NCBI GenBank assembly: GCA_043228905.1
Contig: JBHGNT010000015.1
Location: 19,096,001 to 19,160,000 of the forward strand
Direction of reading: 5' to 3'
From: Azolla caroliniana
Taxonomy: Eukaryota; Plantae; Polypodiophyta
Length of the DNA: 64,000 nt
This document shows, one piece after another, positions 3,480-61,565 of the stretch; within the stretch, counting starts at the first letter, position 1, and every line of letters begins with the position of its first letter. The notes below the pieces were generated by a model. That model saw nothing but the letters and a program-made list of their open reading frames with translations, was not told the origin of the DNA and did no database searches. Position numbers and translations under genes: made by a program.

Positions 3480-3997
3480 TTTTGAATGTGTAAAAATGGG
3501 AAGCACCATTTTTTATTTGACTAGTGGTTAAGGTGATAGACTCGAAATCAATTGGGCATTGCGTGCGTAGGTTCGAATCCTATAGTCAACACATTGTTAT
3601 TATGGAACATAAAAATTTGCGATTAAGAGCTACCATATAAGATAATTGATTTGTAAAAATGATAAGCACTATTGTTGACTTGGTGGAGTAGTTTAGGCGA
3701 TAGACTCGAAATCAGTTGGGCATTGCTTGTGTAGGTTCGAATCCTATAGTCAAAGCATTGTTATTATGGAACATAAACATTTGCGATTAAGAGCTACCAT
3801 ATTAAGATAATTGATGTGTAAAAATGGTAAAAAGCACCATCTTTGATTTGACCAGTGGATAAGGTGATACACTCGAAACCAGTTGGGCATTGCCTACATA
3901 CGTTCGAATCCTATAGTCAACGCATTGTTATTATGGAACATAAAAATTTGCGATGAAGAGCTACCATATAAGATAATTGATGTGTAAAAATCATAAG
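3480..3997 (+). repeat. tRNA-Ser-derived tandem array, block 1 (3 degenerate units)
   Basis: Units at ~3514, ~3674 and ~3841 with AGTGGTTAAGG / ACTCGAAA / GGTTCGAATCC and the same spacer as the main block. Confidence 0.85.
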
Positions 3998-4345
3998 TGT
4001 GAAAGTGTTTTTAGAATCTAAGCCATTGAACATTAGAAGAATATAAAGTATGGATAACTCACATTTAGAGGCTAAGAACACGAACCAAGACCTTAGGAAG
4101 AAGTCAAAAGTAAAAGTAAGAAACCAAGAGAAAAGTAAAAAGAGAAAAAGCGGACCATAAAAAATAGTAAAAAAGAAATGGTCATAACTCACTCATTCGT
4201 TATTCACCCAAATATTATGTTTAAATATAGATTAGAAAGCTTGTAAAGAGAGCTATCTATATCTTTTTCAATCACTAAATTTGGAGCTTTGAAGAGGGAG
4301 ATATGACAATTAGAAGGTCACTGGGTCTTAGCTAAAAATAAGTCT

Positions 4346-7300
4346 CATTCGAAACAGGTAATATGTCGCATTCTCTTTTTCATATCTTAGTGAGATGTTA
4401 AAAAATGCCTTATTTAAGTAGAATTTCAACAAGGCACGACGCATGTGTATGTGGTTTATGAAAACATAGCGAAAAAAAGAACTAACTAATATCACGTCAA
4501 CAAAATCATCCGACGTATATTCTATCTACCATGTTTTTGTCCAAATCTTAGACAGGGGTGTATTTGTCAACACAAGTATAATAGTAACACGGGTCCTTGT
4601 GCATATTCTAAAAAGCATGCCCCATTGAATAAGTGGCTTCTTCTAATTATGTGTGTATATTTAAATATAATACATCTTAAAGCAAATTGTGAACCTTGCA
4701 ATTAAGAGATACTACTATGTCAAGAGAAAATTTCCATTGACATGTGATACATGACACTGTCAATGTATAAATAAACTAGTCTACAATAACATTCTAATCA
4801 TACGAGTAAATGATAGAGTATAAACTTATCTCCGATATACCCCAAATGATAAAGGAGAGTTTAGATAACATGTACACATACAAGTATACTTAATTTCTAA
4901 GTTCAATGATTGTTACACGAAAATTATAAGTAAGCTCAACTTATATATTACGTCAAAATTTAACAATTCATATTGTTCAAAATTTACAATAAGCCATAAC
5001 CATTCAATTGAATAATAAGTTTGGTAAAGCCGTCTACTTAGGATTAGCTCTTTCATCAGGATTGTCCTCATTGGCTTCGTCAGTACGCTAAGTTGAATTG
5101 TTAGTATGTTCAGACTCTGAAACGTCTTCTAATTCAACAAGTTGCCCTGCGTCTTCATCTATAGTTCCACAAGTTTTCTAAAAGTCATCTGGAACATCTA
5201 AGTTTTATTGATATGCTTTGCCCCAACTTCTTGGTCTTGATCAGGACAACCCCAGATACCTTGGATCCTCATTTTGATGACATTAACTTGCTCAAGGTCC
5301 TTCTCTAATGCAACAGAGTTCCTGATAATCTTTAAGGCGTATGTTTTAGTAGTACATGACGGTAGAATGAAATTGCACAGGTAACATCAAACTGAAGAAT
5401 AGAATATAACGTTAATCTAAATTGATGTAAGTTTTATATTATATACCTGTGTCAGAAAACTAATCTAAAACCCATTGAAAATTTGAAAAAATAAAAAATC
5501 TTGGATTTTTAATTGGAATCCAATGCGATGCACTAGATTTCAGTTGAAAATCCAAGTTTTTTTTTTTTGTAATTTTAAAATTTTTTTCCATTAAAAAATA
5601 AAAAATGGATTTTCAGCTAAAACACTATGCACTACATTATATTTTAGTATATATAGTTAGAATCTAATGCAATGCGTTGGATTAGAGTCGAAAATACATT
5701 TTTCTTTTTTCTTTTTCCAATGTTATTTATTTATTTATTTTCCATAAAAAAAAAAAATAAACGGCTTTTCAACTAAAATCCGATACACTACATCAGATTG
5801 TAGTCTATACAGCTAGACATTGATGCATTGCATTAGATTTTAGTTGGCAATCCTCTTTCTTTTCAATTGTTTTTCATTTTTTCAAAAAATAAATAAAAAT
5901 ATATTAAAAAAGTGGATTTCCAACAGAAATCTAATGCACTACATCGAATTTCAATTAAAAATCCAAATTTCTTTTAGGTTTTTCATAAAACAATGAGATA
6001 ATAAAAAAATATTACATTTTCAACAAAATCTGAACCATTGAGTCGGATTTCAATTGCAAATTAATGTTTTATGAAAAAACATAAGAAAAATATTGGACTT
6101 TCAATGGAAATCCGATGCACTGCATCAGATTTCTGTTGAAACTCAGTGATTTTGAACGGAAATCCGATGCAGTGCATCGGATTTCCATTGAAAATCCTGT
6201 TGAAAATGATCTGTTTTCAACGGGAATCCGATGCACTGCATCGGATTCCCGTTGAAAACACATCATTTTAAATGGAGAAAATCACAATTTGTTTATTTTT
6301 AACACGTTTTTAGAGAAAAATATAAACAAATAAGAAAATTTGTAAACAAACAAGAAAAAGTGGACTTTCAATGGAAATCCGATGCAGTGCATCGGATTTC
6401 CGTTGAAAATCCATTTTTTTCAATTCCTATATATTTATTTATGATAAAAACAAAAACAATTCAAAACAAATACAAAAACAAATTCAAAATATCTGAAAAA
6501 TTGGAAACAAATAAGACAAAATGGATTTTCAATAGAAATCCGATGTAGTGCATCGGATTTCTGTTGAAAACCCATTTTTTGCAATTTTTATTTATTTATT
6601 TATGGGAAAAAATGAAAAAAAATTTAAAAAATACAAAAAAATATTTTAAAATATGAAAATTTGGTAACAAATAGCAAAAAGTGGACTTTCAATAGAAATC
6701 CGATGCATTGCATCGGATTTCCTTTGAAAATTCATTTTTTCAATTTCTATATAGTTATTTATGAGAAAATAGACAAACAAAATACCAAAAAATTTCTAAA
6801 AACTATGAAAATTTGGAAAAAAATAAGAAAAAGTGGATTTTCTACGGAAATCCGATGTAGTGCATCGGATTTCCATTGAAAATCTATTTTTTCAATACTT
6901 ATTTATTTTTTATAGAAAAAATTCAAAAAAATTCAAAGAAAAAAGAAAATTTGGAAAAAAATACGTAAAAGTGGACTTTCAACCAAAATCCGATGCAGTG
7001 CATCGGATTTCCGTTGGAAATCCATTTTTTCAATTTTTATTTATTTATTTATGGGAAAAATAAAAACAAATTCAAAAACAATTCAAAAAATAAGAAAATT
7101 TTCAAAAAAATTAGAGAAATTGGATTTTCAATTGAATCCAATGCACGGAATTGGATTTCCATTTAAATCTAATTTTTAAATTTTTATTTATTTATTTATG
7201 AGTAAAATAAAAAATGTTTATTTATTTATTTATGGGAAAATGTTTTATTTTTTCAATTTGTATTTATTTATGTATTTTCGGGAAATCCATGCAATGTATC

Positions 7301-8242
7301 ATATTTTTGTCTATGTAGCTAGAATTCAATGCAATGAATTAAAATGCAAAAGTATTTTTTTAATGGAAATTTTAAAAAAAATTCCAAGACTTACAGGAAT
7401 CTGATGCATTATATCCAATTCTAGATGTATAGAGTAAAATTCGACATGTTGCGTCAAATCTGGATGGAATGAATCGGATTTCTGTACGACATCAAAGGCT
7501 TACTATGAGAATCTAAGAAAAATGGAAAACATCTTTAAGACATTTTTTAGATTCTAATGATTTTGGTAGAAAGCTTCTCTCACATAATCTAATCTTGTAA
7601 ATGGAAAGTACATAATGAAATATCATAACCAAAAAGTGAGGAGGAAAGATGCATCAAGCACATCTACTCTTACATTGGATAATGTTTATATATTAGTGTA
7701 TGACTTATCTTTGACCAAAACAAGTTACCTGTGACAGACCACAATGAAGATACTAAAAGAGGATCTGGAATGTGGCTTCAGACACAACACAAAGACAAAC
7801 AAGAAGCATGACTCATAAACTCGATGAGGTTGGATTGCAATTGGATCAACACAATGCATTAGTTGCCATTGATGATGAGGATGAGACCTCATAAACTCGT
7901 ACTAGTTCATCTAATGGGTATGAGGATGATGACATAAACTTGAAAAATGATTGTCCTGATACGTTAACTATAAATATTGTATTGCACATCAAGATTTGGA
8001 TTCAGAATTTCTATAAATATTGGGGTTAGTCATTTTGGACATTCATTTGTAAGTTTGGCATGTCCATTATTTAGGCATTTTTTTGAACACCTAAATTTCC
8101 GTACATGTTAAAAATCAATATATTTTTGGGTCATTTTTAAAATTCCTTTACGCATGCGGCACCCCTTTTTGTGAATCACCCTAATTTGTGTCATTTTTTG
8201 ATGGACAGTTCTCAAAATGCGACATATTACCTGTTTCAAATG
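4346..8242. mobile_element. Non-autonomous TIR (DNA transposon-like) element nested in the solo LTR
   Basis: 27-bp TIR CATTCGAAACAGGTAATATGTCGCATT (4346-4372) vs its reverse complement at 8216-8242, 1 mismatch. No intact ORF. TSD ambiguous (GTCTC/GTCCC if the ends are moved in by 1 nt). Confidence 0.7.
5500..7480. repeat. Array of ~50-bp palindromes (core GGAAATCCGATGCA-S-TGCATCGGATTTCC) separated by A/T-rich spacers
   Basis: Clear copies near 6095, 6150, 6215, 6361, 6522, 6682, 6833 and 6972; decayed copies at 5500-6060 and 7120-7480. Confidence 0.9.
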
Positions 8243-10437
8243 TCCCGGTGTTTAAGAGATAAAAAGCTTCTAAAAATAGCGTGAACAAGGAAGAAGAAGT
8301 GGAGGTTAAAAGAAGAAGTGGAGGTCCTAATAGAGGAGGAGGAGTCTTAGGAAGAAGTATCTTAGAGGAAGAAGATGGTTCTTAATAGTGGGTTTGAGTG
8401 ATGGGTAGCAGTAAGAAGGTCTTTGGTTTTTAAGTTCATTGTGGACTTTATCCTCTTTGTATTGACTTCAAGTGGAATATTATAACATTCTTATCTCTTT
8501 CTTATCTTCCCTACCTTTTATCTTAATTTCTTGAGTTTTCCTCTCTAAATCGTAGTTACCTAGATCTATATAATCTATTATAATTCACAACTCCATCTAA
8601 TTAGTTTGGTCTAGCCCCCATATTCTGTATGAATATCCCTTGTCTTATACACCCTATCAATAAGCACTATCGTTGACTTCGTCGAGTGGTTTATGCGATA
8701 GACTCGAAATAGTTGGGTATTACTTGCATAGGTTCGAATTCTATAGTCAAAGCATTGTTATTATGGAACATAAAAATTTGCGATTAAAAGCTACCATATT
8801 AACATGATTGATGTATAACAATGATAAGCACCATTGTTGGCTTGGACGAGTGATTAAGGCGAGTTCGAATCCTACAATCAAAGCATTGTTATTATGGAAC
8901 ATAAAAATTTGCGATTAACGGCTATCATATTAAGATGATTGATGTGTAAAAACAATAAGCACCATCGTTGACTTGGCCGAGTGGTTAAGGTGATAGACTC
9001 AAAATTTGTTGGGCATTGACTGCAGAGGTTCGAATCCTACAATCAAAGCATTATAATTGTACATCATAAAAGAGTTGGATTTTATGACACTTGATGGCAT
9101 CATTGACTTGTTTGAATAGTTAAGGTGATAGACTTGAACCGTATTGGGCATTGGCTGTGTAGGTTCGAATTCTATAGTCAACACATTATTATTGTGCAAC
9201 ATAAAAAATTGTGATGAGGGCTATAATATAAGTTACTTAATTTTCATAAAAGTGGTAAGCACTCATTGTTGACTTGGCTGAGTGCTTAAGGTGATAGACT
9301 CGAAATCTATTGGGCATTGCCTGCGTAGGTTCAAATCCTACAATCAATGCATTGTTAGTGTGGAACATAAAAATTTGAAATTAAGAGCTACCGTATAAGA
9401 TAATTAATGTGTAAAAATGGTAAGCACCACGTTTGATTTGACTAGTGGTTAAGGTGATAGACTCGAAATCAGTTGGGCATTGCCAACGTAGGTTCGAATC
9501 GTATAGTCAACGCATTGTTATTATAGAACATAAGAATTTGCGATTAAGAGCTACCACATAAGATAATTGATGTATAAAAGTGGTATGACAAAGCACCCAT
9601 CGTTGACTTGGCCGAGTTGTTAAGGCGATAGACTTGAAATCTATTGGGCATTGCCTACGTAGGTTCGAATCCTACAATCAACGCATTATTACTGTGGAAC
9701 ATAAAAATTTGCGATTAAGAGCTACCATATAAGATAATTAATGTGTAAAAATGGTAAGCACGACGTTTGATTTGACCAGTGCTTAAGGTGATAGACTCGA
9801 AATCAGTTGGGCATTGACGACGTAGGTTGGAATCCTATAGTCAACACATTGTTATTATAGAACATAAGAATTTGCGATTAAGATCTACAACATAAGATAA
9901 TTGACCTATAAAAGTGGTACGACTAAGCACCCATCGTTGACGTGGTCGAGTGGTTAAGGCGATAGACTCGAAATCTATTGGGCATTGCCTGCGTAGGTTC
10001 GAATCCTACAATCAATGCATTGTTAGTGTGGAACATAAAAATTTCCGATTAAGAGGTACCGTATAAGATGGTTAATGTATAAAAATAGTAAGCACTATCT
10101 TTGATTTGATCAGTGGTTAAAAACAATAAGCACCATCGTTCACTTGGCCAAGTGGTTAAGGCGATAGACTCAAAATCTATTGGGCATTGCTTGCATAGGT
10201 TCGAATCCTACAATCAAAGCATTATAATTGTACATTATATAACAACTGGATTTTAAGACACTTGACAACCTCATTGACTTGTTCGAGTAGTCAAGGCGAT
10301 AGACTTGAACCCTATTGGGCATTGCCTGTGAAGGTTCGAATACTATAGTCAACACATTATTATTGCGCAACATAAAAAATTGTGATTAGAGCTACAATAT
10401 AAGTTACTTAATTTGTATAAATGTGGAAGCACCCATT

Positions 10438-10519
10438 GTTAACTTGGCCGAGTGGTTAAGGCGATAGACTCAAAATCTATCGAGCATTGCCTGCGTAGGT
10501 TCGAATCCTACAGTCAATG
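10438..10519 (+). pseudogene. tRNA-Ser-body copy with CAA anticodon (possible pseudogene or mis-decoding variant)
   Basis: ATAGA-CTCAAAA-TCTAT anticodon arm; D and T arms intact; one A-C mismatch and a G-U pair in the acceptor stem; one mismatch in the variable arm. Confidence 0.6.
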
Positions 10520-10786
10520 CATTGTTAGTGTTGAACATAAAATTTTGCGATTAAGATCAACCGTATAAGAGAATTAATGTCTAAAAATGGTAAGCACCTC
10601 GTTTGTTTTGATCAGTGGTTAAGGTGATACACTCAAAATCAGTTGGGCATTGCCGATGTAGGTTCGAATCCTACAGTGAACGTATTGTTATTATGGAACA
10701 TAAGAATTTGTGATTAAGAGCTATCATATAAGATAATTGACGTATAAAATTGGTATGATCAGTGATTAAAAATGATAAGCACCATC

Positions 10787-10868
10787 GTTGACTTGGCCGA
10801 GTGGTTAAGGCGATAGACTCGAAATCTATTGGGCATTGCCTACGTAGGTTCGAATCCTACAGTCAACG
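10787..10868 (+). tRNA. trnS-CGA: tRNA-Ser(CGA), intact cloverleaf
   Basis: Acceptor GTTGACT/AGTCAAC, D arm GCC..GGC, anticodon arm ATAGA-CTCGAAA-TCTAT, long variable arm GGGC-ATT-GCCT, T arm GTAGG-TTCGAAT-CCTAC, discriminator G. Confidence 0.85.
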
Positions 10869-11119
10869 CATTATTATTGTGGAACATAAAAATTTACGAT
10901 TAATAGCTACCATATAAGATAATTAATGCGTAAAAAATGTAAGTACCATGTTTGATTTGACTAGTGGTTAAGGTCATAGACTCGAAATCAGTTGGGCATT
11001 GCCTGCGTAGGTTCGAATCCTACAATCAATGCATTGTTATTATGGAACATAAGAATTTGCGATTAAGAGCTATTACATAAATACTTGATGTATAAAAGCG
11101 GTACAACTAAGCACCCATC

Positions 11120-11201
11120 GTTGACTTGGCCGAGTGGTTAAGGCGATAGACTCGAAATCTATTGGGCATTGCCTGCGTAGGTTCGAATCCTACAGTCAAC
11201 G
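11120..11201 (+). tRNA. trnS-CGA: tRNA-Ser(CGA), consensus copy
   Basis: GTTGACTTGGCCGAGTGGTTAAGGCGATAGACTCGAAATCTATTGGGCATTGCCTGCGTAGGTTCGAATCCTACAGTCAACG; all stems pair, A and B boxes intact. Confidence 0.9.
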
Positions 11202-12096
11202 AATAACTAGTGTGGAACATAAACATTTGTGATTAAGAGCTACCATATAAGATAGTTAATGTGTAACAATGGTAAGTACTATCTTTGATTTAACGACTTA
11301 TTAAAATTGATAAGCACCATCGTTGACTTGGCCGAGTGGTTAAAGCGATAGACTCGAAATCTATTGGGCATTGCCTGCGTAGGTTTGAATCCTACAGTCA
11401 ACGCATTGTTACTATGGAACATAAAAAATTGCGATTAAGAGCTTGCGAATAAGATAAATAATGTGTAAAAAGTTTAAGGACCATGTTTGATTTGACCAGT
11501 GGTTAAGGTGATAGCCTCGAAACCAGTTGGGCATTTTCGAATCTTATAGTCAACGCATTGTTATTATGGAACATAAAAATTTGCGATTAAGAGCTACCAT
11601 ATAAGATAATTTATGTGTAAAAATGATAAGCACTATGATTGACTTGGTCGAGTTGTTTAGGCGATAGACTCAAAATAGTTGGGCATTGATTGTAGGTTCG
11701 AATCTTATAGTAAACACAATGTTATTATGGAACAGAAAAATTTGTGATTAAGAGCTATGATATTGAGAGCATTGATGTGTAAAAATGATAAACACCATCG
11801 TTGACTTGGCCCTGTGGTTAAGGTGATAGGCTCAAAATATGTTGGGCATTGCCTGCCTAGGTTTGAATCCTACAATCAAAGCATTACAATTGTGCATCAT
11901 AAAATAACTGGATTTTAAGACGCTTGACGATAACGTTGACTTGTTCGAGTAGTGAAGGCCATAGACTTTAACCCTATTGGCCGTAGGTTGTGTACGAATC
12001 CTATACTCAACACATTATTATTGTGCAACATAAGAAATTGTGATTAGAGCTACAATATAAGTTACTTAATTTGCATAAAATGGACAAGCATTGATC

Positions 12097-12178
12097 GTTG
12101 ACTTGGCCGAGTGGTTAAGGTGATAGACTCGAAATCTATTGGGCATTGCTTGCGTAGGTTCGAATCCTACAGTCAACG
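12097..12178 (+). tRNA. trnS-CGA: tRNA-Ser(CGA), near-intact
   Basis: Two C>T changes relative to consensus, both giving G-U pairs. Confidence 0.7.
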
Positions 12179-12631
12179 CATTATTAGTGTGGAACATAAA
12201 AATTTGCGATTAAGAGCTTTCGTATAAGACAATTAATGTAGAAAGAGCGTAAGCACCTGTTTGATTTGACTAGTGGTTAAGGTGATAGACTCGAAATCAA
12301 TTGGGCATTGCCAGCATAGGTTCGAATCCTACAGTCAACACATTGTTATTATGGAAGATAAAACTTTGGGTTTAAGAGCTATCACATAAGATAATTGACC
12401 TATAAAAGTGGTATGAGAATACACCCATCGTTGACTTGGCCGAGAGGTTAAGGCGATAGACTCGAAATCTATTGGGCATTGCCTACGTAGGTTCGAATCC
12501 TGCAATCAACGCATTGTTAGTGTGGAACATAAAAATTTGCGATTAAGAGCTACCATATAAGATAGTTAATGTGTGAAAATGGTAAGCACTTTCTTTGATT
12601 TGACCAATGATTAAAAACGATAAGCACCACT

Positions 12632-12713
12632 GTTGGCTTGGCCGAGTGGTTAAGGCGATAGACTCGAAATCTATTGGGCATTGCCTGCGTAGGTTCGAAT
12701 CCTACAGTCAACG
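12632..12713 (+). tRNA. trnS-CGA: tRNA-Ser(CGA), intact
   Basis: One A>G change in the acceptor stem (G-U pair); otherwise consensus. Confidence 0.8.
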
Positions 12714-14321
12714 CATTGTTACTGTGGAACATAAAAATTTGCGATTAACAGCTTGCGTATAAGATAATTAATGTGTAAAAACGGTAAGCACCACGTTTGA
12801 TTTAACCAATGGTTAAGGTGATACTACAGTCAACACATTGTTATTATGCAACATAAGAATTTGCTATTAAGAACTATCACATAAGTTAATTGATGTATAA
12901 AAGTGGTAGGTCTAAGCATCCATCGTTGACTTGGCCGACTGGTGAAGGCGATAGACTCGAAATCTATTGGGAATTGCCTGCGTGGGTTCAAATCCTACAA
13001 TCAAAACATTGTTAGTGTGGAACATAAAAAATTGCGATCAAGAGCTACCATATAAGATAATTAATGTGTAAAAATGGTAAGCACTATATTTGATTTGACC
13101 AATGATTAAAAACGATAAGCACCATCGTTGACTTGGCCGAGTGGTTAAAGCGATAAACTCGAAATCTATTGGGCATTGCCTCCGTAGGTACGAATCCTAC
13201 AGTCAACGCATTATTACTGTGGAACATAAAAGTTTGTGATTAAGAGCTTCCGTATAAGATAAATAATGTGTAAAAAGTTTAAGGACCATGTTTGATTTCA
13301 CCAGTGGTTAAGGTGATAGCCTCGAAACCAGTTGGGCATTGCCTACGTAGATTCGAATCCTATAGTCAACGCATTGTTATTACGGAACATAGAAATTTGC
13401 GATTAAGAGCTGCATATAAGATAATTTACATAAAAAATTGCGATTAAGAGCTTGCGAATAAGATAAATAATGTGTAAAAAGTTTAAGGACCATGTTTGAT
13501 TTGACCAGTGGTTAAGGTGATAGCCTCGAAACCAGTTGGGCATTGCCTACGTAGATTCGAATCCTATAGTCAATGCATTGTTATTACGGAACATAGAAAT
13601 TTGCGATTAAGAGCTACCATATAAGATAATTTACATAAAAAATTGTGATTAAGAGCTTGCGAATAAGATAAATAATGTGTAAAAAGTTTAAGGATCATGT
13701 TTGATTTGACCAGTGGTTAAGGTGATAGCCTCGAAACCAGTTGGGCATTGCCTACGTAGATTCCAATCCTATAGTCAACGCATTGTTATTACGGAACATA
13801 GAAATTTGCGATTAAGATCTACCATATAAGATAATTTATGTGTAAAAATGATAAGCACTATGATTAACTTGGTCGAGTTGTTTAGGCGATAGACTCAAAA
13901 TAGTTGGGCATTGCTTCTAGGTTCGAATCCTATAGTAAACGCATTGTTATTATGGAACATAAAAATTTGTGATTAAGAACTATGATAGTGAGAGGATTGA
14001 TTTGTAAAAATGATAAGCACCATCGTTGACTTGGCCGAGTGGATAAGGTGATAGGCTCGAAATTTGTTGGGCATTGCCTGCCTAGGTTTGAATCCTACAA
14101 TCAAAGCATTACAATTGTGCTTTATAAAATAACTGGATTTTAAGACGCTTGACGATAACGTTGACTTGTTCGAGTAGTTAAGGCCATAGACTTGAACCCT
14201 ATTGGGCATTGGTTGTCTATGAATCCTATACTCAACATATTATTATTGTGCAACATAAAAAATTGTGATTAGAGCTACAATATAAGTTACTTAATTTGCA
14301 TAAAATGGGCAAGCATTGATC

Positions 14322-14403
14322 GTTGACTTGGCCGAGTGGTTAAGGCGATAGACTCGAAATCTATTGGGCATTGCCTGCGTAGGTTCGAATCCTACAGTCA
14401 ACG
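14322..14403 (+). tRNA. trnS-CGA: tRNA-Ser(CGA), consensus copy
   Basis: Identical by eye to 11120-11201. Confidence 0.9.
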
Positions 14404-14867: not shown

Positions 14868-14949
14868 GTTGACTTGGCCGAGTGGTTAAGGCGATAGACT
14901 CGAAATCTATTGGGCATTGCCTGCGTAGGTTCGAATCCTACAGTCAACG
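14868..14949 (+). tRNA. trnS-CGA: tRNA-Ser(CGA), consensus copy
   Basis: Identical by eye to 11120-11201. Confidence 0.9.
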
Positions 14950-41662: not shown

Positions 41663-41705
<43 letters not shown>

Positions 41706-49900: not shown

Positions 49901-50995
49901 TCGGGGGTCTCCACCCACTCCATGAAGTCCCGCTTCGAAAGTCGAAGCGCATCTTCAAGCCCGTATCTTTCGAGGATCCGATCTTCGAACTCCTCCCAGG
50001 TCCGGCTCTCGACCCATACCTCGAGCACCTCCGTATGGATACCCGGCATCGCCACTCGAGGGAACCCGGCTAGACGCCTCTCTTCTGGAATGTCCCTCAT
50101 TACCATCTCAACCCGGTAGGACGCCAAGTAGCTCGTGGCATCCTTTCCACTAAACCGGCCGATCGTACCGACAACCGCCTCGATAGCCCTATCAAGGGCG
50201 CTAGTGCCTTCGCGCACACTCACTATACGGTCTACCGCCGAAGCCATGGCTTCTGCAAGGTCCGACCCCCTCATCTTCTACCCCTCTACCGCCTATTCAC
50301 GTCGGGTTCACCAAATATGTTGCGTCATTACGTGCGTGCGTGGAGAACAAGGCGGGACCACTAGGGTCTTGGACCGAGGAATAGGTGAGAAGAGGGAGAG
50401 AGAGAGAGAGAGAGAGAGAGACGCTCACACACGTATAGACAGAGGAATGCACGGGGACGCGGCCCAACAACACAGGAGACACGAGTTGAGAACACTAGCG
50501 TATGTATATAAATGTATGCAGATGACTCGAACGGCTATAGCTGACCAGGTCAGCGAGGTGGATTCTGACGCCTGATCACCCACGCACACAGGAGAGCAAG
50601 ATGGAGATCCTGCCGGAAGCACACGGGCGTTCCATAGAGCAGGATCAGCCTCCTGAGAACCTGCGCAAAAGAAAGCTATGGAGAATGACAGAGAAGAAGA
50701 GCTCGGTCCCAGTCCGGCAGCACTTCGTCCCCTCTAGCGCGCGATCCCCATCTCTCGCCCCGTCTCCCTCTCCTTTATAGCTCAAGGAGGGAGGCCGTTC
50801 ACCCGTTTACATCACATTAATTCTCTGTCCTTTCAGACAAAGATACTTCTCGATTTCCCCTATAGAATATTGCTACCTAGGATTTAACCTTTGTGCCTAC
50901 CTATCTACTATACAACAAGGGTCGTGCCCATGTGTAAGGGCCGGTTCACACACACTATACACGGTTTGCGCCTGGGGACGGTTTTCTTCACGACA
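43926..50995 (-). mobile_element. Full-length Ty3/gypsy LTR retrotransposon copy 2 (same lineage as 24985-31919), pseudogenised
   Basis: LTRs 43926-44593 and 50318-50995, 4-bp TSD CCGT, 19-nt Trp PBS 50295-50313. Gag with CMWCDAVGHIRKDC knuckle, PR (VDHGS), RT (FLDD), RH, INT (RRWFGPY). Confidence 0.95.
44671..50274 (-). pseudogene. gag-pro / pol coding region of Ty3/gypsy copy 2
   Basis: ORF fragments 49441..50274, 48934..49416, 48148..48864, 46881..47663, 45067..46713 and 44671..44940. Confidence 0.9.
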
Positions 50996-51117
50996 CCGTG
51001 TAGAGGGGTTGAAGCATTTGTACCTTTTTTGCTCCAGTGAGTATCCTACAATGATACATTTCTCCGACTTGGGATCTAGCTTTTGTCGCTTTTCATTGGG
51101 GATGTGCACGTATGCAA

Positions 51118-51642
51118 TGTTAGGAATCGACCAACCACAACCGGTTCCATGTTCGTATTCATGTGCAGAAACCAAGAACTAGTACATAGACAGAAAAACG
51201 TGAAGACACAGAGACACTAATCTTTTACGTGGAAAACCCAAAATGGGAAAAACCACGAGGGTCGACAAACCCTAAGAAACAGATCACTATAGTAGAGAGG
51301 AAGTACAAATACGAAACTCAGAGGCAACGACCTCGAGTTCTCCTTCGTCTGACAGACGGCTACAGAGTTACACTCTCACTCTCTCACTCACGGTTACAGA
51401 GACAACTACCTCATTCTAACTTTACAATAACGATCACTAACTACATCTATTACTAAAGTTTGCCCTAGTTGATTATAAACAAAAGCAACTTTCTGGCTAT
51501 TTGCAAGTATAGCCCCCCATGAGGCATTTTAGACTATTTACAATTATAGTCTTCCGAAACAATTTCGATTTTCGATTTCGATTTCGAGATACTCACCAAC
51601 ACGGTACTTCTCTTCCCATCCGAAGGGACATGCTTCCCAACA
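51118..51642 (-). mobile_element. Solo LTR (525 bp), copia-type, related to the LTRs at 54565/58950
   Basis: TGTT...AACA, TSD TGCAA; shares TTTACGTGGAAAACCC and TTCCCATCC..AGGGAC..CCCAACA motifs. Confidence 0.85.
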
Positions 51643-53413
51643 TGCAATGGAGCCGAATATCCTTACATGGGATAGGTCCGGCTTCTTTCCATAATACTTC
51701 TCATGAGGAGTGACCTCGTGCAGTCCAGATGTTGTGCACCGGTTCATGAGGTAGACATCAGTATTTGTAGCTTCTATCCAATATGACTTGGGCATATGCT
51801 TCTCGTTTAGCATAGCCCTTGCTACTTCAACGATGTGTCAATTCTTGCGTTTAGCTACACTATTCTGTTGTGGTGTGTGTCGGCAAGTGAATTCTCGTCG
51901 AATTCCTTCTTGGCGAAGGTATGTCGTGAATGCATATGAGAAGTATTCCTTTCCTCCATCCGACCCAAGACATCATACATGGTGACCAATTGTCTTTTCA
52001 ATTTCGCTTTTAAAATTTTGAAAGTGTGGAAACACTTCGCTCTTCATTCTCATGGGAAAGATCCACGTGTATCTAGAGAAGTCGTCAATGAAGGTAACAT
52101 AGTACCGACATCCTCTGAATGTGGCCGTCTCTCCCGGTCCCCACACATCCGAGTGGACTACGTCCAATAGGCCTTTGCTCACATTCCTCTCCTTCCGGAA
52201 TGGGTGCCAATGTTTCTTGTCGAATTGGCATGCTCCACATACTCCTTCAATCTCTTTCTCTTTGTACGTCGAAAGTCCAATGACGACTCCTTTCGATTGC
52301 ATCGCCTTGAGTTTGTTGAGATTGATATAGCTGATTCTTTTATGTCATAGCTCTATGTCGTTGTCAGCTTTGAGACCCTTTGCAAATATGGCCAATTTTA
52401 CCTCTTTCGATTCAAGGATAAATGTTCGGCCTTCCCTTCAACCATGAGTAATTAGTCAGCCTTCCTTCTCGATGAAGCAACCACCTTGGTTGAATCGAAC
52501 TTGCATTCCTTGCTCCACAATTTGGCCGATCGAGACCAAAATTTTTGTTATGGTGGGTACATGCAAGACATTTTTGTTACAAGTTTGTTCACCTTCTTTC
52601 CCGAATGGGACATTGTCGACATGCCGAATCGGGTGAGTGGTGTCATCTCCAGTCTCGACATAATCGGGTCGATTTGGCTCTCGAAGGTCTTGGAACCATT
52701 CTTGATGGGACGTCATATGGTTCGAGGCACCAAAGTCGACGAACTATACATCTTCCAGATTTGAGGCATTTGTCGAAGTACAGCCCGACATAGAATTTCT
52801 TCTATGTCTCATCATGAACATTCCGCCATGGTCTTCATAATCGGAGTTGGTGGCGTAATTTGTGAGTTTTCGGCTTGTGGAAGTCAACTCATGCTTCTTC
52901 TTTCGGCACTCTTCTTCATGGTGGCTGAGTATACCATAATATCCAAATTCGATTGGATTGTTTTGTCAGTTTCAACCAACATGGAAACTCCCCCTTCTTC
53001 CAAACGTTCCTCGATTGTTGTCGTGTTCTTGCCTAAATTGGGATTTGTTTTCGTAAGTCAAACCTCGTCCGCCTCCTCCTTGGCCGAATCGGCCACTTGC
53101 TCGGCCATGTCCTCTTCCTTCGTTCGAATGTGTGTAGAGCATGTGTCCTTCCAAGGCATTGCCGTTAGTTCAAACATGATTTTCTTCAACCAATAGCATT
53201 GATTGAAGATCGAAGAAAGAGGGATTCTCCCTTGCTAGAACGGAGGTTCTCATCACGTTAAACCGTGGTGTGAGGCCACCGAGGCATATTTGCACCATCT
53301 CGTCATCATCCACATTGACGCTTATTGAGCCGAGCGAGTCACAAAGCTCCGTGATCTTCAAGGTGTAGCACGTGATGGACATGTCCAGTTGTTGGATGTT
53401 CAAGTCTTGGCGG

Positions 53414-53812
53414 TGTCATGAACACATGACCATTATGGCGTCACTCGAACTTGAACCTCGAACCTTGTAATCCATAATTGAAAACCTCAACCATTAAGAT
53501 AGCTTATTTTCATATGAGAGGATAAAAGCTACTTTTTGTATTAGATTGATTATTGTAAAAACTCTAGATCATTCTAGAACATTATAGAAATCTCTAAGCT
53601 ATTCTATAGGAACCTATAAATAAGGGCATACATGTATTCTCAAATCAATTCGAATCAACACCAGTCTTTAGCTCTCATTGCATATATTGTATCCATTCTC
53701 TTTCTTTCTCTATCTTAATACACCCATTCTTCTCTTAGAATTTCGTTCCTTTCTTCTCGTGTTCCCTTATATCCTTCTTCCATCACTTTATCTTTTATTC
53801 TTGGTTCTGACA
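53414..53812. mobile_element. Solo LTR (399 bp) inserted in the gag of the host copia element
   Basis: TGTCA...TGACA; flanks GGCGG / GGCAA (decayed 5-bp TSD); host gag rejoins as RKLQLRQ. Confidence 0.75.
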
Positions 53813-54340
53813 GGCAAAGTTGAAGCTTTCTTGCGGTTATGTTAGCCGTGAAAATCTTCCTTAGATTCTCCCATGCTTCCTTTGGCGTTGTGGCTTCTCG
53901 AATGTAGCCGAGCATGTGGTCATGAACACATGTCGCCAAGCAATATATTACTCGACTCACCGCTTGCTCCAATGTTGAGTAGTCGGCGTCCTTTGGGTCG
54001 GGTCGATTTTCTTGTGCTTCTTTGATGTAGATCCAATATCCTTGACCGACAAGGTATTGGTGCATCTTGTACTCCCAAGATGCAAAGTTATTTCGATCCA
54101 ACTTCTCGCTAGGGAGAGTGCTCCCCATATGAGTATTCATTGTCGATGAAGCTTTGTTTCTTCTTTTCCTTCTCTCTCGAACACGAGCTATGTAGTCACA
54201 CTACGATAGCGATGAGCCGGTTCTTCTTGAACATTGGCGTAGAACACAACACACGCGGATGGGCTAGATCGAGCTACCAAACCACTCTAATACCATGTAA
54301 TGAATCATGGTATGATTTTGTGCAATGGAATAGATTAGAG

Positions 54341-54387
<47 letters not shown>

Positions 54388-54564
54388 ACAAAGAGAGGAG
54401 AGGAGAGAAACACAAGATAAATAGAAAATAGAATTACTCAAGAAGATTGTATATTACAAAGGAGATTAACTGACTTATTACAAAGTAGGAGGAGGGTGCT
54501 TTATATAGTCACCATGTCTCTTCATTAACTATCAAAGCTCATCGGTCATGGGGAATGTGGAAAC

Positions 54565-57500
54565 TGACGCGAACTACACGTCCCGTATGCGCAACGCTCA
54601 GCCACAACCGAGCTTAGAATCATACACAAAAAAAAAATAGGAATGAATGCACAACACAGTGAAAAAGAAGAGTACATAGGATGTTTACGTGGAAAACCCA
54701 AACTAGGGAAAAAACCACGGCAGCCCACAGGCTGCAAACTATCACTATGTTACAGTGTACAACAGTAAAGCACCGAGGCAACGACCTCTTCCTCTCTCTC
54801 TCTCTCTCTCTGTACATAGTTACGCGCTCTGATCTCGCGCAAACAAGAATGACAACACTCTCTAAAAGTTTGCCCTAAGTCATATTTATACTAATATGAC
54901 TTTTCGGCTATTTACAAATATAGCCATGATGGACTCTTAGAAACCTATTTACGAATATGTCTCTTCATCTAGTGAGCACTCCTCACCGGGTCTGCACCAT
55001 CCGGCTCTCCGTAGCCGGGTACTCCTCATCCGGTTCTCACTGGGTCTGCACCATCCGGCTCTCTGTAGCCGAGTACTCCTCATCTGGTTCTCATCGGGTC
55101 TGCACCATCCGGCACTCCGTAGCCGAGTACTCCTCATCCGGTTTTGGCCTCGGCTGAGTTTGCTCATCAGCACTGTTCTTCTCCCTTCCCATCCAGAGGG
55201 ACCTGTCTCCCAACAAACTCCCCATTCACTCTGGCATGGGGTGTCTTACTAGTCCGATCCGCTTCCGGCATGCATCCAGCTTGTCGGGTATCAACACTTT
55301 GGTCAGCATATCTGACCCGTTCTCAGCCGTGTGGATCTTCGTCAGCGCAAACTCCTGGTCATCTACTCTTTCTCAAATCCAGTGATACCTACGATAGATA
55401 TGCTTTGTCCGGGAATGGTAGGCCGCATTCTTAGCAAGGTGGATGGCACTTTGACTGTTGCAATAGAGCCGATATTCATCTTGTCGTATACCGAGCTCTC
55501 CGATGAAGTCCTTCATCCATAATATTTCCTTGCCGGCTTCCACAGCCGCCATGTACTCCGCCTCCGTGGTTGACAACGCAACCGTCTTCTGCAGTCTCGA
55601 CTGCCACGAAACAGCTCCCCCTGCATATGTCATTACATACCCGGATGTAGATCGGCTGGTATCCACATCAGCCGACATGTCCGAATCGGTGAAACCATCA
55701 AGTTGAGGTTTTCTGGAGCCGAATCGGAGACACATATTGGTAGTGCCCTTCAAGTACCGGAGTATCCATTTGACCGCGTTCCAGTGCTCATTGTCGGGAT
55801 TGCTCATAAACCGGCTCACCACTCCGACTGCGTATCCTATATCTGGTCGGGTACAAACCATTGCGTACATCAAGCTCCCGACGGCAGAGGCATATGGAAA
55901 CTTCATCATATCCGCCTTCTCTGCTTTTGTCTTCGGGCTTTGCTTACCGGATAGCCTGTAGTTTGCCGGAAGTGTCGATCTGACCGGTTTCGCATCTAAC
56001 ATGTTGAACCGCTGAAGCACCTTTGTCACCTACTTCTCCTGTGACAACCACAATTGCTTCATTGACCGGTTCTGAATAATATGCATCCCCAACATCTGTC
56101 TTGCCGAACCCAAGTCTTTCATTGAGAAGGTCCGGTTGAGAGCCTTCTTCAGCATCCGTATTTTGGCTTGGTCCCATCCGACGATCAACATGTCGTCCAC
56201 GTACAGAAGGAGTATCAGGAAGTCGCCTCCTTCGAACTTCTTCACAAACACGCAGTGATCGGCTTGCGTCTTGTGGTACCCTTGATCGGTCATGAAGGAG
56301 TCAAACTTCTGGTACCATTGTCGGGGAGCCTGCTTCAGTCCGTACAGGCTCTTCTTCAACCGGCAAACCAAATGCTCCTTCCCTTTCTCCACAAATCCTT
56401 CCGGTTGCTACATGTAGATCTCCTCTTCAAGGTCACCGTGAAGGAATGCCCGTCTTCATGTTTAGCTGCTCTACCTCGAGGTCCATGCTTGCTGCTATAC
56501 TCAGCACCGTCCGGATGGAGGTCATCTTTACTACCGGGGCAAATATCTCGTCGAAGTCCACGCCCTTCTTCTGCTGGAACCCCTTCACCACGATCCTGAC
56601 TTTGTATCTCGAGGGATTGCCAGCATCTCCCGGTTTCAACTTGTACACCCACTTATTTCGGAGTGCCCGCTTTCCTTTCGGCAATTCCACCAATTCGTAC
56701 GTATGGTTCTCATGCAGGGAATCCATCTCATCCTGCATGGCACTTAACCATTTTCGACTGTGGGTGTCATCCTTCGCTTCTTCGAAGCTTTCCGGCTCCC
56801 CCTCATCGGTCAGCAGAACATGCTCTGCATCCGGAAATCTCCCAGGGGGGCCTTCTCTCTCTGAGAGGATATCTCCGTCTTCGGGCTTCGGTAACCGGCT
56901 CCTCCATTTGCTCTTCATCCGAATCCGATTCGGGGTCTTGTCCGGTTCCGGATTCGGCTTCCTCTACTTCTTCTTTAGCCTGTTCGGTATCCTCCACCGT
57001 AACTGGCTGGTTCCTCGAGTGCTAACCGGTCTCTTGCCGGTTGGGTCTACTCATCGTAGAATCTATCCTTACCGGTCGACTCAAAGTTCATTATCTTCTT
57101 CTCCGACTCCCAGTCGGCGAGCGTCTTGTCCTCCATGAAGATAATATCTCGACTCCGGAATACCTTCTTGTCGACCAGGTCCCACACTCGGTAGCCGAAC
57201 TCATCGTCGTCGTAACCGAGGAATATGCATGGTCGGGTCTTCGGATCTAGTTTTCCTCTCCGGTCCTTAGCTACATGCACATATGCAAGACACCCGAATA
57301 CTTTCAGATGTTGGTAGGACACTTCCTTACCGGTCCAGACTCTCTGTGGCATGTCTCCGTCCAAGGGTACTGAGGGTGATCTGTTTATCACATATGTCGC
57401 CATCGATAGTGCCTCAGTTTTGCATGCGCTAGCATACTCCGAACCCTCTCCATTATGGTCTGGTTCATCCTCTCGGCCAGCCCGTTTAGTTCCGGCGTCT

Positions 57501-59223
57501 TCAGCACGGTGAATTCGAGTCGGATTCCCTTCGAGCGACAGTACTCCTCGAACTGCCCCCGGTATTCACCTCTATTGTCTGCTCGAACCGCCTTCAACTT
57601 CCGGTCGGTTTCTCTTTCCACTCTCGCGTGGAGCTCTTTGAAGACGGATAGCACCTGATCCTTCGTCTTCAATGGTGTGGCCAACAACTTCCGGTTGTGG
57701 TCATCTATGAATGTCACGAAGTACTGCGATCCTGCATGTGACTTCGTGTCCACTTGACACACATCAATATGCACCACCTCCAATGGTGCATTACGTCTCA
57801 TCAGTCGAACCTCCGGAACGTGTCGGACATCCTTCAGCAGCAACTTGCATCCGGTTGGTGTTGTCAGCCACACGTCTCCTATGCCGACAATTCGGCATGT
57901 ACCTTCATTCCCCATCCGGACACAGCCGTGATCACCGGTTGAGTAGGATGAGAAGCATTTCTGGTCCGGGGTAAGGTGGAACGACGCTCCAGAGTCTACC
58001 ACCCAGGTCATCTCGTCGCCGGCAAGGTTTATCTCACTCTCCTCGGTGATGAGCATCAACTCTTCTTCACTTGCCGCGATTGCCGTCGTTCCCTTCTGGT
58101 CCGGCCCCCTCCGGTCTTTACCGTTCCGGTCCGGGGTCCGCTTCGAATCGGTACCGTCGGTCTCCTTGTCTTTTCGGAAATGCCGACAATTCTTCTGGAA
58201 GTGTCCCGGCTTGCCGCAATAGAAGCAAGTAGGCCTCCCCCTTGACTTTGACCGTGTCCCCGACTTTTCCCGGTTTTGGGGACTACGGTTTCTGTGTCTT
58301 CCGCGTTCCGATTTGGTAAGGAGCGATTTGGAGTCGGAGCTCGTATCCTTATCTTTCCAACGCGCCTCCTCATCCAGCAAGCTCGACTTCACTCTTGCTA
58401 GGGATAACCATTTTCCTTCCGGCCCGGCGTTGCCCAAAGTGACAACCAACGTCTCCCAGCTATCCGGGAGGGAACCGAGCAGGAGTAGCGCTAGTACCTC
58501 ATCGGCGAGAGGTACTTCCAATGATGTTGCCTAGTGGATCAACCCCTAGAAGGCATTCATGTGCTCCGCCATGCCGGAGCCATCTTGGTACCAGAGTCTT
58601 ACTAGCTTCCGGAATACTGAAACCTGATTAACAGCATTTTTGTTTTGAAACATAATGTCGATCTTCTCCTAGAGCTCATGAGCCTTGCTCTCTTCATTGA
58701 AGTTGTTGTATAGGCTCATGTCGATGAAGCACCGTATGTGCGCCGTTGTCTTCATGTGCATCACCTCCCATATCGTGGCGTCGATTTTGTCCGGTCTCTT
58801 GTCCCCGAACTGAACCGGCAACCAAATATCTTTAACCACGAGCATGTCCCTCATCTTCGACTTCCACACCGAATAGTTGGAGCCGGTGAGCTTGAACATG
58901 CCTCCCAACGAATCGTCCATTTTCTGTGTCGTTTTGCTCTAATACCACTTGACACAAACTACACGTCCCGTATGCGCAACGCTCGGCCACAACCGAGCTT
59001 AGAATCATACACAAAAAAAAACAGGAATGAATGCACAACACAATGAAAAAGAAGAGTACACTGGATGTTTACGTGGAAAACCCAAACTAGGGAAAAAACC
59101 ATAGCAGCCCACAGGCTGCAAACTATCACTATGTTACAGTGTACAATAGTAAAGCACTGAGGCAACGACCTCGAGCTTTCTATCTTCACCACAAGCGGCG
59201 GTTACAACAGAGGCAACAACCTC

Positions 59224-59277
<54 letters not shown>

Positions 59278-59570
59278 CACAGTTACGCGCTCTGATCTCG
59301 CACAAACAAGAATGACAACACTCTCTAAAAGTTTGCCCTAAGTCATATTTATACTAATATGACTTTTCGGCTATTTACAAATATAGCCACGATGGACTCT
59401 TAGAAACATATTTACGAATATGTCTCTTCATCCGGTGAGCACTCCTCACCGGGTCTGCACCATCCGGCTCTCCGTAGCCGGGTACTCCTCATCCGGTTTC
59501 GGCCTCGGCCGAGTTTGCTCATCAGCACTGTTCTTCTCCCTTCCCATCCAGAGGGACCTGTCTCCCAACA
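54565..59570 (-). mobile_element. Full-length Ty1/copia (Tnt1/Tork-like) element nested in the host 5' LTR, pseudogenised
   Basis: LTRs 54565-55215 and 58950-59570, TSD GAAAC, PBS TGGTATTAGAGC at 58936-58947, PPT after 55215. Motifs CFYCGKPGHFQKNC, WVVDSGAS, NGLAERMN, LYVDDML, GFTDSD, EAEYMA. Confidence 0.95.
55373..58920 (-). pseudogene. gag-pol of the inner copia element (stops, frameshifts, deletion between protease and integrase core)
   Basis: ORF fragments 58669..58920, 57388..58521, 57047..57403, 56433..56918, 56030..56392 and 55373..56029. Confidence 0.9.
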
Positions 59571-60004
59571 GAAACTCACTAGGTATGTGTCATACAATAC
59601 GATTCTATGACACATAGTTAATGCTACAAAAGTAGTGGTGACTTTTGACCTTTGAGTGTTCATACACTCTCAAGGGTGTGTTCACACACTAGACTAGGTT
59701 GAGCTTGATTCTCAACATTGTGGAACATAAAAATTTGCAATTAAGAGCTATAATATAAGATAATTGAATAGGCTCCTTCCTATTTTCTACTTGGCGTTCA
59801 CCAAGTGTCGGTTCCGCCTTAGGAGGGTAGGCAGTTGGTATGGGCCCTCTAACTTCTTTCTGGGGCTTTCCTCTCACTAAAGATCTCACCAGTTTTACCT
59901 GCGGATGGTTGGGACCATAATAAGATAAGAGTTGAAAGGTCCCACTTTGCTTGGCTTGTCGGGATGTCGTTCAATCTTTCATCCCCAATAGAATAGATAG
60001 GTAA

Positions 60005-60815
60005 TGTTACGGGCATGACCATATAATATCCCGTTATCGCGTTGCTACGCGCGTGCGTGGAGAAGGGCGGAACCACGGGGGTCTTGGACTAAGGAGTAGA
60101 GGAGAGAGAAGGAATAGGACATGGAATGGAAGCTTTGCTCAAGAAGAAGAAGAATGAACAAGAGATAGGATCGAACAAGAGGAAGATGGAGACAAGATGA
60201 TCAACAAGATATATAAAAACGAAATGAATGATTACCAAAATGGTGGCCGCATAGGCCGCACCAAACGACTACTCGAAACCCTAACCGACGAAGATGAAGA
60301 TAAAGATAAAGAAACCCTAACCCTAACGCTCGGCCTATGTGGTATACCTCGCACACTCAAAATAGGCAACCCCCACAATGGTGCCTTCCCTCTCCTTTTA
60401 TAGCACAAGGAGGGAAGACCGTTTACCAAAGTGAGACTAAAATATCCCCTTTCATTCAAAAGGGATATTTGCCTTGATTTGGGGAGGGTGAGATTGATGG
60501 CCCCTTAACTCCCACCTCCACACAAACAACTAGGTACCTATGTACCACATAGTACCTCTCTCTCTCTCTCACGTGGATGTGCGCACAAGACCACATCACC
60601 TTTATACCTTAGGGATCTTATGGGGCATTTCTAGCACCATACACTTTACCCTTATTACTATTACAAATACATTATGTACGTGTGCAACGTTGCACATCGC
60701 TCTTTGGCTCTCGTTGCTCGGGTTTCCGCTTGTGGACGAAAATCTTCACGACACCGTGGTGAGAATTTATCGTACTATTCTCACCATGGGATAATATATG
60801 GTCATGCCCGTAACA
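60005..60815. mobile_element. 88-bp hairpin mini-element (TGTTAC...GTAACA, 5-bp TSD GGTAA) interrupted by a solo LTR
   Basis: Removing 60035-60757 gives 39-bp arms (2 mismatches) and a 10-nt loop; TSD at 60000-60004 / 60816-60820. Confidence 0.88.
60035..60753 (-). mobile_element. Solo LTR of the Trp-primed Ty3/gypsy lineage
   Basis: TATCGCG (TG decayed)...CTTCACGACA; start homologous to the LTR at 43926; 4-bp TSD CCGT. Confidence 0.85.
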
Positions 60816-60859
60816 GGTAACCTGCTCTCATGCTTACTATAAACTTTCGTACAATAGTC

Positions 60860-61565
60860 CCATTGTTGACTTGGTCGAGTGGTTTAGGCAATAGACTCGA
60901 AATCTGTTGAGCATTGCTTGCGTAGGTTTGAATCCTACAATCAATGTATTATTATTATGTAACATAAAATTTACGATTTACTTGATGTGTAATAAAAATG
61001 GTAAGTACTTGTACAACATAAATATTGTGATTTACTTGATGTAATAAAACTAGTAAGACGCACCATCTTTGACATGGCCAAGTGGTTAAGGCGATAGATT
61101 CGAAATCTATTGGGCATTGCCTGGATAGGTTCAAATCCTATGGTTGATGCATTATTATTGTGCAATATAAAATTTGTGATTAACCGTTATAGGATACTTG
61201 ATATGTAATAATACAAGAAGCGACATCGTTGACGTGGCCGAGTGGTTAAGGCGATAGACTCGAAATCTATTGGGCATTGCCTGCGTAGGTTCAAATTTTA
61301 CAACGAATGCGTAATTATTGTCCAACATAAAATTTGTGATCAATAGTTGGGATGTAAGATACTTGACGTGTAATAAAAAATGGTTAACCACCATCATTCA
61401 CTTGGTCAAGTGGTTAAGGTGATAGACTTGAAATCTATTGGGATTACTTGCGTAGGTTCAAATCGTACTTGAAATCTATTGGGCATTGCTTGCGTAGGTT
61501 CAAATATTACAGTCAACGCATTATTATTGTGTAAAACATAAAATTTGTGATTAACGCTATAGTGT
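60860..61565 (+). repeat. tRNA-Ser-derived array, final block (4-5 degenerate units)
   Basis: Units at ~60865, 61068, 61228 and 61395 plus a duplicated 3' half. Confidence 0.88.

What the first reader, a model, noticed from the sequence alone, without database searches (positions are those of the whole stretch)
3480..61565. A satellite built from a single tRNA-Ser(CGA) gene: ~85 head-to-tail copies of a ~165-bp unit
Seen: all five blocks share one unit, and where TSDs survive the blocks rejoin exactly once TEs are removed, so they were probably one array of roughly 14 kb. The consensus folds into a complete serine-type cloverleaf and at least three copies are identical. Known: tandem tRNA clusters exist in plants (Arabidopsis Ser-Tyr-Tyr and Pro clusters) and are often methylated and silent. 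Inference: a mono-isoacceptor, nucleosome-length array of the usually low-copy CGA isoacceptor may be a tRNA gene turning into satellite DNA, a dosage amplifier for UCG decoding, or a source of tRNA-derived small RNAs.
Basis: partly seen in the sequence, partly recalled or inferred. Interest (0 to 1): 0.78.

Follow-up and report, generated by a model that had tools for sequence, protein, structure and literature searches.

The report
Decaying serine tRNA gene array, fern
About 86 head-to-tail copies of one serine tRNA gene form a 14-kb array, likely in a fern; most copies are broken in a pattern that likely reflects DNA methylation, while six intact copies were likely preserved by selection, making it a larger, tighter and more decayed example of the tRNA gene clusters known from flowering plants.

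Summary
The array is real: 86 tRNA-Ser(CGA)-derived copies, all on one strand, median unit 164 bp, about 14.0 kb in blocks split by seven insertions. Two insertions have exact 5-bp target duplications and a third rejoins in register. Contigs from two runs of other studies cover the core, so it is not an assembly expansion. The host is likely a fern. The founder was a working tRNA: its 12 differences from the commonest homologue all keep the structure. Only 6 of 86 copies are intact, all in the 9.65-kb core, which is a ~2-kb higher-order repeat mixing near-intact and dead unit types. Changes concentrate at CG/CHG sites. Three identical tRNA bodies have spacers 9-14 of 53 bases apart, which suggests selection or conversion; damage in the other near-intact copies looks unselected. 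No intact copy has a TTTT terminator within 300 bases. This is a plant tRNA homocluster decaying towards satellite, like the Arabidopsis Ser-Tyr-Tyr array. I found no Ser(CGA) or fern cluster described, and the scan had not found this before on other DNA. Expression is untested.

The parts
3480..3997 (+). Array block 1: three damaged units
   Evidence: ends in TSD ATAAG
3998..8659 (.). Insertion 1, TG...CA ends, 5-bp TSD ATAAG; contains a ~161-bp AT-rich tandem repeat
8660..18313 (+). Array block 2 (core): 59 copies, higher-order repeat with offsets 1906 and 2225 bp, all six intact copies, no insertion
10787..10868 (+). Intact tRNA-Ser(CGA), 1 difference from founder
11120..11201 (+). Intact tRNA-Ser(CGA), founder sequence
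12097..12178 (+). Intact tRNA-Ser(CGA), two changes to G-U pairs
12632..12713 (+). Intact tRNA-Ser(CGA), one change to a G-U pair
14322..14403 (+). Intact tRNA-Ser(CGA), founder sequence
14868..14949 (+). Intact tRNA-Ser(CGA), founder sequence
10438..10519 (+). Serine tRNA body with CAA (Leu) anticodon; A/B boxes kept, two stem pairs broken, TTTT 24 nt downstream
   Evidence: (57.2 bits)
18314..36071 (.). Insertion 2: nested elements, including a Gypsy element at 24985-31919 (LTRs 5.9% apart)
36072..38699 (+). Array block 3: 14 damaged or partial units, interrupted by short inserts at about 37115-37239 and 38387-38589
38700..40640 (.). Insertion with Copia-related LTR sequence; right end CA, no TSD
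40641..41612 (+). Array block 4: six damaged units; ends in TSD TTGTG
41613..59717 (-). Copia element with a nested Gypsy (43926-50995) and a nested Copia (54565-59577); TSD TTGTG
59718..59767 (+). Spacer fragment continuing block 4
60856..61569 (+). Array block 5: four damaged units, the last with an internal duplication

Best explanation
This is a tandem cluster of one tRNA-Ser(CGA) gene that likely grew by unequal crossing-over, is likely methylated and mostly silent, and has largely decayed into pseudogenes, while one lineage of units was likely kept intact by purifying selection until recently. Shown: the founder was a structurally valid tRNA with an 82-bp spacer; units diverged into types (near-intact A; dead B, B', C, D, E) that were then duplicated together as ~2-kb blocks; transposons split the outer parts; 6 of 86 copies remain intact, all in the core. 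Inferred: unequal crossing-over as the route, methylation as the mutagen, selection on type A, and present-day silence of most copies.
For: Founder validity: 12 differences from the commonest homologue (59 of 121 matches) are 5 two-sided pair changes, 1 G-U to G-C and 1 loop base; a single-copy gene in L098 differs by 1 base. Block duplication: offsets 1906, 2225 and 4131 bp, block identity up to 91%; unit types form clades across blocks. Methylation-type decay in 75 of 86 copies (11 truncated ones dropped): CG 232/952, CHG 132/368, CHH 163/1710, A/T 178/3063 changed. Selection: 17 units classed as A by one spacer base alone differ from the founder at 59/1394 tRNA sites against 366/2659 in the other 33 core units; class consensus changes are 0-1 for three A classes and 7-13 for five others; three identical bodies would be expected to carry about 26 changes on the spacer clock (Poisson P 4e-12, 2.6e-7 after correcting for all triples). 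All 7 insertions lie outside the 9.65-kb core (P about 0.0025 for uniform breaks). Intact centre and dead ends match the Arabidopsis SYY array (PMC2886086 section 17).
Against: Changes carried by A copies are not enriched for harmless ones (33 of 59 harmful, against 312 of 594 in others). The per-copy tRNA/spacer ratio differs only at P 0.066. Copies share ancestry, so site counts are not independent. Recombination can decouple bodies from spacers, so conversion can mimic selection. 11 of 17 spacer-defined A copies fail my intactness filter. Methylation and silence were not measured. No intact copy has a nearby terminator, which is odd for a selected gene, although L098 lacks one too.
Confidence: 0.62

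Rival explanations
1. A wholly neutral tRNA-derived mini-satellite: no copy works, and intact bodies are refreshed by gene conversion from a dispersed functional gene or survive through recent block duplication.
For: Damage in A copies looks unselected; no terminators; the Arabidopsis SYY array was judged to drift in copy number (PMC2886086 abstract).
Against: The three identical bodies sit in three A sub-lineages with spacers 17-26% apart, so recent duplication alone does not explain them. They carry A at position 73 where the single-copy gene in L098 has G; if L098 resembles the host's dispersed gene (unknown), that gene is not the donor.
Confidence: 0.2
2. An active, possibly tissue-specific supply of UCG-reading tRNA, made as multi-unit Pol III read-through transcripts that end at the TTTT in the type-D spacer of each higher-order repeat and are cut into tRNAs.
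For: Intact copies have their first TTTT 333-1960 nt downstream, and all five D units have one 32 nt behind them; 31 of 86 copies keep A- and B-box invariants; the SYY cluster is reactivated in root-cap cells despite methylation (PMC12308677 abstract).
Against: 80 of 86 copies are damaged; CG/CHG decay implies long methylation; Arabidopsis clusters are silent in most tissues (PMC7544208 passages); the D-spacer TTTT is one inherited event, not five.
Confidence: 0.13
3. A concatemer of a tRNA-derived SINE.
Against: The unit is a complete tRNA with paired changes, not a degenerate head; no run of 8 or more A in the array; no copy outside the blocks or on the - strand; array depth is far below that of the flanking elements in three runs.
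Confidence: 0.03
4. An assembly expansion of a shorter array.
For: No listed contig spans the whole core, so copy number and order are unconfirmed.
Against: The longest exact repeat in the core is under 120 bp and the best long repeat is 91% identical; runs X2 and X3 from other studies cover 30 of 30 bins, with 157 of 395 and 232 of 597 contigs at 99% or more.
Confidence: 0.02

Closest known systems
Arabidopsis Ser-Tyr-Tyr (SYY) tRNA array (PMC2886086 abstract and section 17; PMC7544208 passages; PMC12308677 abstract and section 7)
   Same: Same-strand tandem tRNA genes, growth modelled by unequal crossing-over, functional copies in the centre and pseudogenes at the ends.
   Different: Here one gene per unit, 164 bp per gene against about 500 (76 genes in 39 kb), Ser(CGA) not Ser(AGA), about 93% of copies damaged (13 of 54 Tyr copies in SYY), and no terminator, whereas most Arabidopsis clustered genes keep poly-T.
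Plant tRNA homoclusters (Hummel et al. 2026, PMC13437025, section 10 and Table S3; Monloy and Planta 2024, PMC11700998 passages)
   Same: One isotype repeated in tandem; meets the threshold of 5 or more genes in 5 kb. Maize has 39 Ile genes in 18 kb; Brassica napus has 26 Ile genes in 4 kb, a similar spacing.
   Different: No plant cluster in Table S3 has anticodon CGA (27 hits, all fly, human or mouse); no fern is named among the groups in that chromosome-scale analysis; here dead unit types are built into a higher-order repeat.
Plant satellites proposed to derive from tRNA genes (Benslimane et al. 1986; title seen only in the reference list of PMC4411372)
   Same: Short tandem unit of tRNA origin.
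   Different: Here the tRNA is still complete, six copies are intact, and the array is 14 kb rather than a genome-wide satellite.
Entamoeba tRNA arrays (PMC2652664, search listing only)
   Same: Tandem arrays of tRNA gene units.
   Different: Those hold nearly all tRNA genes of the genome and have STR spacers; this is one mostly dead locus.

Membership tests
Plant tRNA homocluster | At least 5 tRNA genes within 5 kb | tested here: met
   29 ARAGORN calls in the 9.65-kb core; 5 of the 6 strictly intact copies lie within 3.9 kb (11120-14949)
Plant tRNA homocluster | One isotype, same orientation, tandem units | tested here: met
   All hits on + strand; all derive from one Ser body, anticodon changes are mostly C>T or G>A at its CpG
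Plant tRNA homocluster | Methylated and mostly silent (as in Arabidopsis) | not testable with these tools
   Only the indirect CG/CHG mutation excess
Functional nuclear tRNA-Ser gene | Cloverleaf with long variable arm, G discriminator, A and B boxes | tested here: met
   6 of 86 copies pass all stems and invariants; 65.4 bits on RF00005. Identity elements recalled, not from a call
Functional nuclear tRNA-Ser gene | Poly-T terminator just downstream | tested here: not met
   0 of 6 intact copies within 300 nt; 113 of 117 homologues have TTTT within 28 nt; 67-72% of angiosperm genes within 50 nt, so the feature is not universal
tRNA-derived SINE | Dispersed copies with A-rich or simple-repeat tail and TSD per unit | tested here: not met
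   Within the window only; depth contrast. No whole genome was held
Centromeric or high-copy satellite | Long, high-copy arrays | tested here: not met
   14 kb here; array bins 37-241 against 2404 and 9586 in flanking elements for run X1 (order of magnitude only, not a copy number)
Centromeric or high-copy satellite | CENH3 binding or nucleosome phasing | not testable with these tools
   No chromatin data

The most novel reading that the evidence does not exclude
The core is a terminator-less, multi-gene Pol III transcription unit: polymerase starts at intact type-A copies, reads through dead neighbours to the TTTT in each higher-order repeat, and processing releases serine tRNAs, including serine bodies whose CpG anticodon has mutated to CAA and that would put serine at leucine UUG codons whenever silencing lifts. 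The array would then be a methylation-gated source of both extra tRNA and mistranslation.
Probability: 0.08. Interest if true: 0.78.

Novelty: new member of a known kind. Interest (0 to 1): 0.36.

Why it matters
It extends tandem tRNA clusters to a likely fern and to an anticodon not listed in any plant cluster I could check. It shows the gene-to-satellite path in mid-course, with intact, dead and truncated unit types built into one higher-order repeat. Whether such clusters are selected or are by-products is called unresolved in a 2026 review (PMC13578239, passage). This array suits that question because nearly every copy has its own SNPs, so methylation, Pol III binding and RNA can be mapped copy by copy. 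It also shows how tRNA counts in repeat-rich plant genomes inflate: 39 predicted genes, 6 intact.

Tried and rejected
No whole genome is held, so genome-wide copy number, dispersed Ser(CGA) genes and any continuation left of the window are open. Sequencing runs: no RNA holder listed; run X13 (RNA is a guess) laid 2 contigs, both in the flanking element; neither is evidence on expression. Reads were laid on 8450-18600 only, so block 1, insertion 1 and blocks 3-5 have no read support. Of 32 contig variants tested (40 shown, 152 more not shown), 13 matched other window copies and 19 did not: a weak hint of alleles or further units, since unlisted neighbouring variants could break the match. Primer supply for the local LTR elements: rejected, no site matches the array tRNA's 3' end. 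Spacer homology to the 120 metagenome loci, including L098: none beyond chance. UCG demand: UCG is 21-46% of Ser codons in six transposon ORFs, but no host gene set was available, so not used. Two tRNA-like stretches seen by eye (near 2700 and 22300) gave no Rfam hit. Minimum-energy folding of the intact copy did not give the full cloverleaf; I relied on the covariance model and pair checks. Supplements of PMC6786969 held as text gave nothing on tRNA arrays; text not held may bear on novelty. Earlier scan notes: nothing near this locus, only unrelated Naegleria notes by sequence.
Full report
OBSERVATION. BLAST with the copy at 14868 gave 86 hits, all on the + strand. A profile of the whole unit gave 99 hits covering 13,178 bases, in blocks that add up to 14,038 bases. 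The majority unit is 164 bp: an 82-nt tRNA and an 82-nt spacer; median spacing is 164. ARAGORN genes and Rfam 39. I analysed 86 copies: the BLAST hits minus one internal duplicate, plus one deleted copy found by the profile. Bodies at 11120, 14322 and 14868 are identical.

ONE ARRAY. Seven insertions break it. Two have TG...CA ends and exact 5-bp duplications (ATAAG; TTGTG). One has a 6-bp duplication with a mismatch. The 17.8-kb gap rejoins in register without a duplication and recreates the intact junction at 17605-17665. Three lose about 10, 6 and 19 bases (my reading of the printed junctions). The inserts include Gypsy and Copia elements (Pfam) with LTR pairs 3.1-6.8% apart (some pairs compared in part only).

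NOT AN ARTEFACT, NOT HIGH-COPY. The longest exact repeat in the core is 110-119 bp and the best long repeat is 91% identical. Ten of 15 listed runs, from 5 studies, hold words of the core. Laid on 8450-18600, X1, X2 and X3 each cover 30 of 30 bins. X1 may be the source sample; X2 and X3 are other studies, and X3 bears another organism label. No contig spans the core. Array bins have depth 37-241 in X1 against 2404 and 9586 in the two flanking-element bins; the tool says this is no copy number, so I use it only to say that the unit is not as abundant as those elements.

HOST. The PPR fragment at the window's end has its best named relatives in Adiantum and Ceratopteris at about 40-52% identity. 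A fern is likely; PPR repeats place it only loosely.

THE FOUNDER WAS A WORKING tRNA. A pattern scan of metagenome contigs gave 120 loci with 121 full-length genes; the commonest sequence occurs 59 times (that it is the usual flowering-plant form is recalled). The array's intact body differs from it at 12 sites: five pairs changed on both sides, one G-U to G-C, one loop base. A single-copy gene in L098 differs by one base (G for A at position 73 of the 82) and shares no flank.

INTERNAL STRUCTURE. A tree of 75 units (11 truncated ones left out) recovers types that recur along the core: a 19-unit near-intact clade A (support 98/92) and dead types B, B', C, D, E. They repeat as blocks with offsets of 1906, 2225 and 4131 bp. 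This is what unequal crossing-over produces (inference; same model as for the Arabidopsis array, PMC2886086 abstract).

DECAY. Six copies keep all 24 scored pairs and the invariant bases; two more break one pair. All six are in the core; 25 scored outer copies carry 7-16 changes each. Relative to the founder, 24% of CG, 36% of CHG, 9.5% of CHH and 5.8% of A/T site-copies are changed, at CG and CHG mostly C>T or G>A (75 copies). Within classes the order holds (non-A: 15%, 20%, 6%, 2%). This is the expected trace of plant CG and CHG methylation; methylation was not measured. The anticodon is a CpG: 51 CGA, 16 TGA, 14 CAA, 5 other.

SELECTION, FOR AND AGAINST. To avoid circularity I defined A by one spacer base (17 units). 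Their bodies differ from the founder at 4.2% of sites against 13.8% in the other 33 core units; spacers differ at 7.5% and 11.5% (that script stopped later on an error and was rerun). Class consensus bodies carry 0-1 changes in three A classes and 7-13 in five others. The three identical bodies have spacers 9, 14 and 11 of 53 sites apart; a shared clock predicts about 26 body changes (P 4e-12; 2.6e-7 over all triples). All insertions miss the 9.65-kb core (P 0.0025), though core blocks are not obviously younger than the dated LTRs. Against: changes in A copies are as often harmful (33 of 59) as elsewhere (312 of 594), the per-copy ratio test gives P 0.066, copies are related, and conversion can decouple bodies from spacers. 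I read this as selection on type A through most of the array's history, now on a few copies at most.

TERMINATION. The unit has no TTTT. The first lies 666, 333, 1960, 1425, 1641 and 1095 nt behind the six intact copies; all five D units have one 32 nt downstream. Among the metagenome genes 113 of 117 have TTTT within 28 nt; L098 has none in 264 nt. In angiosperms 67-72% have one within 50 nt (PMC11700998 passages), and non-flowering plants are less T-rich there (PMC13578239 section 20). If transcribed, intact copies would give multi-unit precursors. Seryl-tRNA synthetase does not read the anticodon (PMC11415595 passages), so CAA copies would be Leu-to-Ser mistranslators if matured; six keep their A and B boxes but none is intact, the best (10438) breaking two pairs.

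COMPARISON. Tandem tRNA clusters are established in plants. Table S3 of PMC13437025 (part 1 of the summary sheet read; whole file searched for CGA) lists maize Ile (39 genes, 18 kb), B. napus Ile (26 genes, 4 kb), Arabidopsis SYY (76 genes, 39 kb) and apple Ser(GCT) (5-6 genes), and no plant cluster with CGA. Arabidopsis clusters are methylated and silent (PMC7544208 passages), with functional copies central (PMC2886086 section 17; PMC12308677 section 7) and root-cap reactivation (abstract). Nine searches showed no fern tRNA array; subscription papers and unheld supplements may. One fern is known for more than 7500 annotated tRNA genes (PMC13578239 passage), so arrays like this may sit unremarked in annotations.

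VERDICT. A real, well-resolved new member of a known kind: a tRNA homocluster far along the way to satellite-like DNA, with a likely selected core. Its unusual traits are the anticodon, the lineage, the share of dead copies, the higher-order repeat and the missing terminator. Interest 0.36.

Noticed in passing
window 1-3473: Very young LTR element abutting the array's left end: 613 of 613 LTR bases identical, primer site like that of the two Gypsy elements (Trp-type, recalled), a 707-codon frame with no Pfam hit. The array may continue beyond it, outside the window.
   Followed up: partly
window 24649-32013: A small foldback element (94-bp terminal and 89-bp inner inverted repeats) that hosts the first Gypsy element.
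   Followed up: partly
window 60005-60815: An 811-bp LTR-like solo element with 28-bp terminal inverted repeats and TSD GGTAA.
   Followed up: partly
window 6160-7241: AT-rich ~161-bp tandem repeat with a palindromic core, inside insertion 1.
   Followed up: no
window 25636-25665 and 44592-44620: Both Gypsy elements have a purine-rich tract at the 3' LTR, unlike the PPT-less lineage noted elsewhere in this genome.
   Followed up: partly
L098 289-370: Single tRNA-Ser(CGA) gene one base from the array founder, also without TTTT in 264 nt downstream; organism unknown.
   Followed up: partly
L007, L015, L024, L055, L056, L059, L078, L094: Short tandem Ser(CGA) pairs or CGA/TGA runs spaced 153-257 bp in other plant-like contigs, so closely spaced Ser genes are not rare starting points.
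   Followed up: no
window 63339-64000: 5' part of a PPR gene about 2 kb downstream of the array's last unit.
   Followed up: partly
window 553-2673, 27013-29453, 45070-47798, 57391-58530: UCG is 21-46% of serine codons in six transposon ORFs.
   Followed up: no
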